A stretch of DNA of 64,000 nucleotides, taken from the IMG/VR virus record IMGVR_UViG_3300017991_000007, positions 42,649-106,648 of that record, one strand, 5' to 3'. Source of the stretch: a virus. Positions 488 through 1,395 of the stretch are shown here, in pieces (position 1 is the stretch's first letter; every line of letters begins with the position of its first letter). Below the pieces are notes generated by a model. The model made no database searches and was not told the DNA's origin. It worked only from the letters and a program-made list of their open reading frames with translations. The position numbers were made by a program, and so were the translations under genes.

Positions 488-518
488 AAAGCCCCGGCGT
501 AAAAACCGGGGCTTTTTA
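488..518 (+). terminator. Rho-independent terminator, possibly bidirectional
   Basis: AAAGCCCCGG-cgtaaaaa-CCGGGGCTTTTT, between convergent units. Confidence 0.85.
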
Positions 519-520
519 TT

Positions 521-691
521 AAGAGGGGGATAGGCATTTCAGCCTACCGTTTCCGCTTACTTGTATGAACGGCAATTCTCCAAAAGGTACCCGCCGGTAC
601 ATCTTGGCCTCAGCGGTGTTTTTCAATAACCCGGTCCTAAAGTCGGTTGCCGCCAACCATTACCCCCGAATCACCTCAAACTACCCCTCTT
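521..691 (-). ncRNA. Candidate structured ncRNA (about 170 nt) with a closing stem and 3' hairpin
   Basis: Minus strand 5'-AAGAGGGG pairs with CCCCTCTT-3'. Adjacent hairpin GGTAGGC-TGAAAT-GCCTATC; internal hairpins GGTTG/CAACC, CCAAGA.GTACC/GGTAC.TTTTGG and CCGTT/AACGG. No credible ORF. Confidence 0.45.
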
Positions 692-835
692 AGCAAATCA
701 AAGAAATAACGGCTTGCTCCCCGTGCCTACCGCCTGAATCAGCCCCAAAAATCCTTTGCTGAAACTTCCCTATCGGGTACCTCTAGTTAAGCGGGTAAAA
801 ACCCCGAAACGCCCCTAGTCGTATTTCAAAAGTAA

Positions 836-932
836 GGCGGGATGAGCCGGGGATTCAAACCCCGTCGCCATTGTAGCGGCTTTACCATTCGTGATCATAT
901 CCGTTTGCAACCGGATACTCCCACCTCATCCC
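836..932 (-). ncRNA. Non-canonical tRNA-like RNA (97 nt)
   Basis: Minus strand: 8-bp terminal stem GGGATGAG/CTCATCCC then GCC; T-arm CGGGG-TTTGAAT-CCCCG; D-loop-like GAATGGTAAA; hairpins TATCCG-GTTGCAAA-CGGATA and GCCG-CTACAA-TGGC. No canonical D stem, no encoded CCA. Confidence 0.6.
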
Positions 933-1096
933 TACTCTCTTGAGAGGTCTTTTTTCATTTCCCTCTTGAATACCCTGCGGGTCTTACGGCGCAAGGCTTT
1001 CCGTTCTTTTCCGGGTGGGGGTCCGCAGCATGAACAATTCATCCCGCCGGGTCCAACCCATTTCCAAGAGGTTTTCTTGAATTCATCTATTGTCAT
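932..1096 (-). CDS. Small basic Cys-containing protein, 54 aa (MTIDEFKKTSWKWVGPGGMNCSCCGPPPGKERKALRRK...); not in the ORF track
   Basis: Translated by hand; its ATG overlaps the TGA of the upstream minus-strand gene (ATGA coupling). Confidence 0.65.
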   Translation of the reverse strand: MTIDEFKKTSWKWVGPGGMNCSCCGPPPGKERKALRRKTRRVFKREMKKDLSRE

Positions 1097-1293
1097 TTTC
1101 GCTCATTCCTTTCCCAAAAAAGATCATCCCACATTTCAACCGCCTCAGCTTTGGTGCGTCCTAACGGTCCCTCAGAGTCACAACTTATGCAAGCTACTCT
1201 GAAACCTACTATCATCGGAGCGCAACCGGCGGGTGGGCTTTCCTCCATTTCAGCCCAAAGCATACCGGAGCCGCCTAAGCACTCAAAGCACAA
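1093..1293 (-). CDS. Lar-like (restriction alleviation family) zinc-binding protein; start uncertain
   Basis: CxxC...FRVACISCDSEGPLGRTKAEAVEMW resembles the Lar pattern VxCxxC..GP...T..EA...W; first gene after the leftward promoter. Confidence 0.5.
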   Translation of the reverse strand: MCFECLGGSGMLWAEMEESPPAGCAPMIVGFRVACISCDSEGPLGRTKAEAVEMWDDLFWERNERK

Positions 1294-1366
1294 CTCCTTT
1301 GGTTTTGGCTCATTTCGTACCCCATTTTGAGGCTCCTTTCATGCAAACTGATTATCAACTGACTGC

Positions 1367-1395
1367 ATCATAACAACGCTCTTTTGGTGTGTCAA
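1367..1395 (-). promoter_or_regulatory. Leftward sigma70 promoter
   Basis: Minus strand TTGACA-17 nt-TATGAT with extended -10 TG. Confidence 0.85.

What the first reader, a model, noticed from the sequence alone, without database searches (positions are those of the whole stretch)
521..691. Second structured RNA candidate with the same closing-stem plus 3'-hairpin layout
Seen: the minus strand begins AGAGGGG-TAG, like a tRNA acceptor strand followed by U8-A9-G10. It ends with a 7-bp hairpin directly followed by CCCCTCT, just before the terminator. The interior of about 130 nt holds several hairpins and no ORF. Inference: with 836-932 this makes a roughly 410-nt ncRNA cassette co-transcribed with a Lar-like gene and a small basic protein, a possible RNA-plus-protein anti-defence or host-takeover module. 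This is my best candidate for an undescribed system here. Caveat: AAGAGGGGTAG also matches this phage's RBS motif.
Basis: partly seen in the sequence, partly recalled or inferred. Interest (0 to 1): 0.7.

Follow-up and report, generated by a model that had tools for sequence, protein, structure and literature searches.

The report
Orphan folded RNA tail, unproven
The last 170 bases before the terminator of a sediment phage's small leftward operon can fold into a closed multi-hairpin RNA, but the fold is no better than dozens of others in the same genome, has no relatives anywhere, is not tRNA-like by any test, and overlaps an unnoticed 45-codon reading frame, so it remains a weak candidate.

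Summary
On the minus strand, 521-691 is closed by an 8-9 bp helix. A 7-bp hairpin abuts its 3' strand, and a terminator hairpin follows at 488-515. The fold is -65.7 kcal/mol, z -3.5 against shuffles, and stronger on the minus strand than the plus strand.

Three points weaken the finding:
- **Not exceptional.** When boundaries are optimised everywhere in this 106.6-kb phage, 66 other local folds score as well. About 60 loci show the same "closing stem plus 3' hairpin" layout, mostly inside genes.
- **"No ORF" is wrong.** A 45-codon frame (519-656, UUG start, GGGGG 6 nt upstream) fills the element and stops 2 nt before the terminator's A-tract.
- **No comparative or family support.** ARAGORN, even relaxed, Rfam with lax filters, and a model built from the neighbouring element 836-932 all fail to match it. 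No relative of the RNA, of the two upstream small proteins or of the flanking genes could be found, so covariation cannot be tested.

My best reading, about 0.35, is the structured untranslated 3' tail of an early, host-promoter-driven operon, acting as a nuclease-resistant end or a processed stable RNA. Chance fold and a small protein remain live rivals. The neighbouring element 836-932 is the better tRNA-like candidate.

The parts
1367..1395 (-). Sigma-70-type promoter of the leftward unit (TTGACA, 17 nt, TATGAT, TG-extended)
   Evidence: 11 of 12 matches; sequence
1275..1325 (-). 16-codon leader frame with AAAGGAG 7 nt upstream of its ATG
   Evidence: read; same frame as the 27-aa ORF 1275-1358
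1093..1293 (-). Cys-rich small protein (66 aa from TTG; 56 aa from the ATG at 1263, as called publicly); orphan, possibly Lar-like
   Evidence: Pfam gives only a weak DUF6349 hit; Atlas neighbours include Lar clusters at 0.93
932..1096 (-). 54-aa basic CxxC protein; its start overlaps the upstream stop (ATGA); orphan
836..932 (-). Non-canonical tRNA-like element: 8-bp terminal helix, 5-bp T-arm with loop UUUGAAU, variable-arm-like hairpin; begins at the stop codon of the 54-aa ORF
   Evidence: z -4.06; rank 11 of 1482 local folds; ARAGORN finds it only at a 90% threshold; its model's best foreign hit is a class II tRNA-Ser
692..835 (-). 144-nt linker with short hairpins and no convincing ORF
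521..691 (-). The finding: a closed five-arm fold (P1 684-691/521-528; P2 618-681; P3 580-607; P4 553-572; P5 529-548)
519..656 (-). Overlapping 45-codon frame (UUG start, GGGGG 6 nt upstream, UAA stop 2 nt before the terminator's A-tract); coding status undecided
488..515 (.). Bidirectional terminator hairpin (7 G-C-rich pairs plus A/U extension). The U-tract is strong for the plus-strand gene ending at 466 and only UUU on the minus strand
   Evidence: sequence; one search aligns it to terminator parts of several sRNA models; one search shows the hairpin is shared with unrelated contigs

Best explanation
521-691 is the distal part of a long untranslated 3' tail of the phage's small leftward operon. 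Host RNA polymerase would transcribe the operon early from a consensus sigma-70 promoter.

Inferred mechanism:
1. The transcript runs through two small Cys-rich or basic protein genes, then through the tRNA-like element 836-932, then through this domain to the terminator hairpin.
2. The tRNA-like element offers an acceptor/T-arm minihelix of the kind host RNase P and 3'-end enzymes recognise, so the tail may be cut from the mRNA just after the stop codon.
3. The 171-nt domain, closed by an 8-9 bp helix stacked on a 7-bp hairpin and backed by the terminator hairpin, would then be a compact end resistant to 3' exonucleases. It either stabilises the operon mRNA or persists as a terminator-sharing small RNA.

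Shown: the promoter, the ORFs, the fold, the strand bias and the absence of any family match. Inferred: transcription through the tail, processing, stability and any trans-acting role. It is not a tRNA, tmRNA, Y RNA or retron RNA.
For: - The promoter and terminator bracket the unit, with no internal promoter or terminator found.
- The 410-nt tail was left uncalled by public gene callers, which did call both upstream ORFs.
- The minus-strand fold is -65.7 kcal/mol, z -3.48 with 0 of 200 shuffles as stable. The plus strand gives z -2.0, and 11 G-U pairs make the fold strand-specific.
- The fold is fairly well defined. Its MFE frequency of 3.6% is in the top 4.4% of 250 comparable local folds, and its ensemble diversity is in the best 20%.
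- The 6-nt hairpin loop CGGCAA (647-652) has a perfect complement UUGCCG at 570-575, a possible pseudoknot.
- The neighbouring element 836-932 is a stronger outlier, ranking 11 of 1482.
- Two closed domains of this layout within 412 nt have a post hoc probability of about 0.006, based on about 60 such loci in the genome.
- In the fold, the UUG start of the overlapping frame is paired and its GGGGG is partly paired.
Against: - After boundary optimisation the fold is ordinary for this genome. Sixty-six non-overlapping local folds of 130-200 nt score as well, most of them in coding DNA.
- The layout alone is expected 0.12 times in such a stretch.
- An 8-bp long-range helix in about 400 nt is expected roughly once by chance (own estimate).
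- There is no covariation evidence, because no relative exists in any collection searched. Contigs from four other runs were identical to the window where they overlapped it.
- No Rfam family matches.
- The minus-strand U-tract after the terminator hairpin is only UUU, so the 3' end is not well defined.
- A 45-codon frame with a plausible ribosome site fills the element.
Confidence: 0.35

Rival explanations
1. The fold is a chance by-product. 521-835 would be spacer or decayed sequence between a tRNA-like element and a terminator that mainly serves the converging plus-strand gene. In that case 521-691 has no specific structure-dependent role.
For: - Sixty-six local folds are equal or better, and about 60 loci share the layout.
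- The stability excess vanishes when the window is shifted 30-60 nt.
- No family match, no paralogue in the genome and no relative anywhere.
- A crude gene call finds several other gaps of 350-1400 nt in this genome.
- The terminator's U-tract favours the plus strand.
Against: - z -3.48 with 0 of 200 shuffles as stable, plus the strand asymmetry.
- The MFE frequency is in the top 4.4% of comparable local folds.
- It sits next to a second and stronger closed element.
- Phage genomes rarely keep 400 nt without use (general knowledge).
Confidence: 0.35
2. The stretch encodes a 45-aa protein (519-656, minus strand). It would be translated from the UUG at 656 using the GGGGG 6 nt upstream, as the last gene of the operon.
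For: - The frame is open for 45 codons and ends with UAA 2 nt before the terminator's A-tract.
- Its codon score of 3.9 is similar to the two accepted small ORFs upstream, which score -0.9 and 2.9-4.7 per 45 codons.
- The G-run spacing is close to this phage's usual ribosome site.
Against: - The codon score does not discriminate: 15% of shadow ORFs reach it, and the likelihood ratio is about 1.
- UUG starts are rare here.
- The start codon is paired in the predicted fold.
- It is not called by public pipelines, and there is no Pfam hit.
- The phmmer hits are to unrelated repeat proteins (MucBP, EPTP, WD40-like) through a stretch of about 17 aa repeated many times, which inflates the score.
- The Atlas gives no usable hit.
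- An open 45-codon frame has a chance of about 0.1 per frame.
Confidence: 0.15
3. 521-691 is a second tRNA mimic. Together with 836-932 and the two small proteins, it would form an RNA-plus-protein anti-defence or host-takeover module.
For: - The arm order has cloverleaf-like topology, with a terminal helix stacked on a 3' hairpin.
- The neighbour is tRNA-like.
- The unit has an early-type promoter.
- The adjacent protein is basic and has a CxxC motif.
- Lar-like neighbours appear in the Atlas.
Against: - ARAGORN finds nothing in 521-691 at a 90% threshold, and the Rfam tRNA and tmRNA models give no hit at E<=10.
- The 3' hairpin has a 7-bp stem and the 6-nt loop UGAAAU, not a 5-bp stem with a UUCRANN loop.
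- There is no CCA or RCCA after the helix.
- The model of 836-932 does not match it.
- No Lar HMM hit.
- No defence or counter-defence context was tested.
Confidence: 0.07

Closest known systems
3'UTR-derived, terminator-sharing bacterial small RNAs (for example CpxQ, SroC, DapZ; from general knowledge, not tested here)
   Same: It lies between the last stop codon and the operon's intrinsic terminator on the sense strand. It could be released by processing and would keep the terminator hairpin as its 3' end.
   Different: At 170-410 nt it is much longer and more folded. There is no U-rich Hfq-type tail on this strand, no known seed and no conservation data. Processing has not been shown.
Phage T4 small stable RNAs C and D (species 1 and 2), encoded with the tRNA cluster (from general knowledge)
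   Same: These are phage-encoded, non-tRNA stable RNAs lying beside tRNA-type genes. Their ends pair, and their function is still unknown.
   Different: No sequence relation was tested or is expected. Here only one non-canonical tRNA-like element is adjacent, not a tRNA cluster. The phage's one true tRNA (CUA anticodon) lies about 7.5 kb away.
Bacterial and phage Y RNAs YrlA/YrlB (PMC4201824)
   Same: They are tandem small RNAs processed from one precursor. Each has a T-arm-like hairpin and paired ends, and some are cut by RNase P.
   Different: There is no Rfam match and no Ro60/TROVE gene in the phage. The loop here is not a T-loop.
tRNA and tmRNA
   Same: A terminal helix is stacked on a 3' hairpin, and the 5' strand is followed by UAG.
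   Different: Neither ARAGORN nor the Rfam models recognise it. The arms are the wrong sizes, and there is no anticodon-type loop and no CCA.
Retron msr-msd RNA
   Same: It is about 170 nt and closed by terminal inverted repeats.
   Different: There is no reverse transcriptase anywhere in the phage, and a terminator rather than a gene follows it.

Membership tests
tRNA (Rfam RF00005 / ARAGORN cloverleaf) | Cloverleaf with a 7-bp acceptor, D-arm, 5-bp anticodon stem with 7-nt loop, and 5-bp T-stem with a UUCRANN loop | tested here: not met
   ARAGORN at default and at a 90% threshold finds nothing in 521-691. Rfam gives no tRNA hit at E<=10. The 3' hairpin is 7 bp with the 6-nt loop UGAAAU.
tRNA (Rfam RF00005 / ARAGORN cloverleaf) | A 3' discriminator followed by CCA, either encoded or addable at a defined end | tested here: not met
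   The helix is followed by AAUAAAAAG and the terminator, with no CCA.
tmRNA (one-piece or permuted) | A tRNA-like domain plus a tag reading frame, as recognised by ARAGORN or Rfam RF00023, RF01849, RF01850 and RF01851 | tested here: not met
   Searches give no match. A GGGGCUGAUUC string at about 740 has no complementary 3' strand (checked by eye).
Y RNA (YrlA/YrlB) | Encoded next to a Ro60 (TROVE) gene | tested here: not met
   There is no TROVE match in the complete phage record at E<=1, while the controls were positive.
Y RNA (YrlA/YrlB) | Match to the family covariance model, or conserved T- and D-loop nucleotides | tested here: not met
   No Rfam hit at E<=10.
Retron ncRNA | A reverse transcriptase gene adjacent on the same strand | tested here: not met
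   No RVT_1 match in the genome at E<=1.
3'UTR-derived / terminator-sharing small RNA | Located on the sense strand between the last stop codon and the operon terminator | tested here: met
   The stop is at 932-934, the terminator hairpin is at 488-515, and no internal terminator or promoter was found.
3'UTR-derived / terminator-sharing small RNA | A discrete stable RNA species with a processed or separately initiated 5' end | not testable with these tools
   No RNA run holds the sequence, and only DNA contigs could be laid.
Conserved structured RNA (any new family) | Helices supported by compensatory changes among relatives | not testable with these tools
   No relative was found by DNA, protein or pattern searches. 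The variants in other runs are identical.
Lar restriction-alleviation family (neighbouring 66-aa protein) | Match to Pfam PF14354 (Lar_restr_allev) | tested here: not met
   Pfam at E<=10 lists only DUF6349 below its cut-off. PHROGs gives nothing. The only lead is an Atlas feature neighbour at 0.92-0.93.

The most novel reading that the evidence does not exclude
The 410-nt tail would encode two processed, tRNA-topology RNAs. One (836-932) is a degenerate class II tRNA mimic, and the other (521-691) is an expanded five-arm mimic with a loop-junction pseudoknot. They would be made together with a zinc-ribbon protein and a basic CxxC protein as an immediate-early RNA-protein module that engages host tRNA-processing enzymes or tRNA-targeting defences.
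Probability: 0.07. Interest if true: 0.7.

Novelty: new member of a known kind. Interest (0 to 1): 0.22.

Why it matters
If real, this would be another orphan phage-encoded structured RNA made early from a host-type promoter and sitting beside a non-canonical tRNA-like element. RNAs of this kind (T4 RNAs C and D, phage Y RNAs) remain poorly understood, and some may interfere with host RNA processing or tRNA-directed defences.

As it stands, the practical lesson is methodological. A good shuffle z-score and a tRNA-like outline at hand-picked boundaries are common in this genome, so they do not establish an RNA gene. The phage is a singleton from uncultured sediment and seawater samples with no known host, so the question is not directly testable without synthesising the cassette.

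Tried and rejected
**Homology searches, all empty or uninformative**
- blastn (distant mode) of 400-1500 against 50,697 phage records gave no match.
- Protein-guided scans of IMG/VR with the 54-aa, 66-aa, 114-aa and 437-aa proteins found none.
- The portal gave one 59% relative on a 5.7-kb contig that does not reach the region, plus one 27% relative.
- Metagenome scans with the 308-aa neighbour found nothing, and the portal scan found the same 5.7-kb contig again.
- The genome-contig scan with the portal found nothing.
- In the 5.8-billion-protein search, the 54-aa and 66-aa proteins matched only themselves.

**Pattern and model searches**
- A D-loop/T-loop pattern from 836-932 gave 18 hits in IMG/VR, all chance matches in coding DNA.
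- The T-loop-plus-acceptor 20-mer was absent from 185,579 species genomes, so 836-932 is not a copy of a host tRNA 3' end or attP core.
- Single-sequence covariance models R1 (836-932) and R2 (521-691) were searched in the phage itself, the two IMG/VR relatives, Rhizobium phage L338C and Streptomyces phage IchabodCrane. Each matched only itself, apart from R1's weak hit on a tRNA-Ser.

**Sequencing runs**
- No RNA holder was listed.
- Contigs from four DNA runs, each covering only parts of the stretch, carried no differing letter, so they give no variation to analyse.

**Other ideas rejected**
- Permuted tmRNA: the ends are not complementary, and ARAGORN and Rfam are negative.
- Retron or DGR RNA: no reverse transcriptase and no repeat partner.
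- Y RNA: no Ro60.
- AAGAGGGGTAG as a working ribosome site: the GGGGTAG motif precedes genes at 21 of 33 plus-strand copies but at none of the other 13 minus-strand copies. Here it is followed only by 2-4-codon frames.

**Technical**
- Codon-usage scoring of the 45-codon frame was uninformative.
- The first genome-wide fold scan timed out and was repeated at a coarser step.

Full report
**Setting.** The window is bases 42,649-106,648 of a 106,648-bp virus record with direct terminal repeats. Its genes mark it as a tailed phage with a baseplate: portal, baseplate wedge, class II ribonucleotide reductase and CobS/CobT-like genes. Parts of the same sequence, with no differing letter, occur in sediment and seawater metagenomes from several studies. 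It has almost no relatives. The best is one 5.7-kb contig with a 59% identical portal, and among isolates the portal reaches only about 29% identity.

**The transcription unit.** Nearly all genes in the window are on the plus strand. A near-consensus sigma-70 promoter points leftward at 1395-1367 (TTGACA, 17 nt, TATGAT, TG-extended, 11 of 12). Downstream on the minus strand lie, in order:
- a 16-codon frame with a perfect AAAGGAG site (1275-1325);
- a Cys-rich ORF (1093-1293, or 56 aa from the ATG at 1263);
- a 54-aa basic CxxC ORF (932-1096), whose ATG overlaps the upstream stop as ATGA;
- 410 nt with no called gene;
- a GC-rich hairpin at 488-515.

That hairpin is a strong terminator for the converging plus-strand gene, which ends at 466 and is followed by UUUUUAUU. 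On the minus strand it is followed only by UUU. Public pipelines called the 54-aa and 56-aa ORFs and none of the frames in 519-931. Both small proteins are orphans. 'Lar-like' is backed only by a language-model neighbour, not by Pfam or PHROGs.

**Checking the observation.** The minus strand of 521-691 folds at -65.7 kcal/mol into a five-arm structure:
- P1, 8 bp (9 bp with 520/692), formed by AAGAGGGG and CCCCUCUU;
- P2, a long arm at 618-681;
- P3, at 580-607;
- P4, at 553-572;
- P5, a 7-bp hairpin with a 6-nt loop at 529-548, abutting P1 with no gap.

None of 200 dinucleotide shuffles folds as well (z -3.48). The plus strand gives z -2.0. Eleven of the 58 pairs are G-U, so the fold is strand-specific. 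The P2 loop CGGCAA is perfectly complementary to UUGCCG at 570-575, which could form a pseudoknot. I put the chance of such a match at roughly 0.05-0.1.

**How unusual is it?** The boundaries were chosen by eye, so I built nulls from the phage itself.
- I regressed MFE on dinucleotide counts for 3,738 fixed 171-nt windows. The exact window falls in the top 0.9%, but shifting it 30-60 nt removes all excess.
- I ran RNALfold with a 200-nt span over both strands. This gave 66 non-overlapping local folds of 130-200 nt with the same or a better score, most of them inside genes.
- The specific layout (closing stem of at least 7 bp, plus a simple hairpin of at least 5 bp within 1 nt of its 3' strand) occurs at about 60 loci. 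That gives about 0.12 expected per 412 nt of one strand.
- Two such domains in one 412-nt stretch has a probability of about 0.006, but the pattern was defined after the fact.
- The fold is fairly well defined. Its MFE frequency of 3.6% is in the top 4.4% of comparable local folds, and its ensemble diversity is in the best 20%.

In sum, thermodynamics supports 'could be structured' but not 'must be'. By the same yardstick, 836-932 ranks 11 of 1,482 and is the more convincing element.

**Is it tRNA-like or a known RNA?** No.
- ARAGORN finds no tRNA or tmRNA in the window. Relaxed to 90%, it finds only a sub-threshold class II cloverleaf at 839-925 and nothing in 521-691.
- Rfam gives nothing at gathering scores and nothing meaningful at E<=10, even when only 186 nt are submitted.
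- P5 has a 7-bp stem and a UGAAAU loop rather than a T-arm, and no CCA follows P1.
- A covariance model of 836-932 matches only itself in the phage. Its best foreign hit is an unannotated class II tRNA-Ser(GGA) in Streptomyces phage IchabodCrane. That supports the tRNA-derived nature of 836-932 but not of 521-691.
- The model of 521-691 matches only itself.
- The genome has no paralogue of the region, no Ro60 gene and no reverse transcriptase.
- The T-loop-plus-acceptor 20-mer of 836-932 occurs in none of 185,579 species genomes.

**The overlooked reading frame.** A 45-codon frame (519-656) starts at a UUG 6 nt after GGGGG and ends at UAA 2 nt before the terminator's A-tract.
- Its codon score of 3.9 resembles the two accepted small ORFs, but 15% of shadow ORFs reach that score, so the likelihood ratio is about 1.
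- An exhaustive phmmer search gave 22 hits, all large repeat proteins of unrelated families (MucBP, EPTP/DUF6242, WD40-like). Each matched through a stretch of about 17 residues repeated many times, which I read as score inflation rather than homology.
- Pfam, the Atlas and public gene calls give nothing.
- The start codon is paired in the predicted fold.

The frame can be neither accepted nor dismissed.

**The RBS caveat.** GGGGTAG precedes real starts at 21 of 33 plus-strand copies, but at none of the other 13 minus-strand copies. At 681-691 it is followed only by 2-4-codon frames. It is therefore more likely to be one strand of P1, or chance, than a working ribosome site.

**Verdict.**
- The most likely single reading (about 0.35) is a structured untranslated 3' tail acting at the RNA level. 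It would be a nuclease-resistant end, or a stable RNA released by processing at the tRNA-like element.
- A functionless chance fold is about equally likely (about 0.35).
- A 45-aa protein is at about 0.15.

No comparative test is possible with the data that exist. The decisive evidence has to come from expressing the cassette and mapping its RNAs.

Noticed in passing
window 836-932 (-): A non-canonical tRNA-like element starts at the stop codon of the 54-aa ORF. It has an 8-bp terminal helix and a T-arm with loop UUUGAAU, and it is followed by GCC. It ranks 11 of 1482 local folds. ARAGORN calls a class II cloverleaf ('Arg ACG', with C33 and a mismatched acceptor) only at a 90% threshold. Two alternative 5' strands, GGGAUGAG and GGUGGGA, can pair with the same 3' strand.
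   Followed up: partly
window 1275-1325 (-): A 16-codon frame with a perfect AAAGGAG site opens the leftward transcript. The 56/66-aa ORF behind it has no good ribosome site of its own, so this may be a leader or coupling arrangement.
   Followed up: no
G000:C1:40950-41490 (+), L023 250-790: This is a second gene-poor stretch of about 480 nt with its own TTGACA/TATATT promoter and a terminator. It has no Rfam match at E<=1 and no similarity to 480-940.
   Followed up: partly
G000:C1:35732-35805 (+): The only canonical tRNA in the phage has a CUA (amber-reading) anticodon. Both the 16-codon frame and the 54-aa ORF of the leftward unit end in TAG, but read-through of the latter would add only one codon before a TGA.
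   Followed up: partly
L029 75-160 (MN428060.1 77174-77259): An 86-nt tRNA-Ser(GGA) lies in an intergenic gap of Streptomyces phage IchabodCrane, and no tRNA feature is listed there in the annotated features returned for that stretch.
   Followed up: yes
window 488-517: The terminator hairpin sequence also occurs, with a 3-nt insertion, on unrelated high-depth contigs in three runs. It is a shared or convergent terminator hairpin and says nothing about the phage.
   Followed up: no
window 1093-1096: The stop of the Cys-rich ORF and the start of the 54-aa ORF overlap as ATGA. This suggests translational coupling and supports both as real genes.
   Followed up: no
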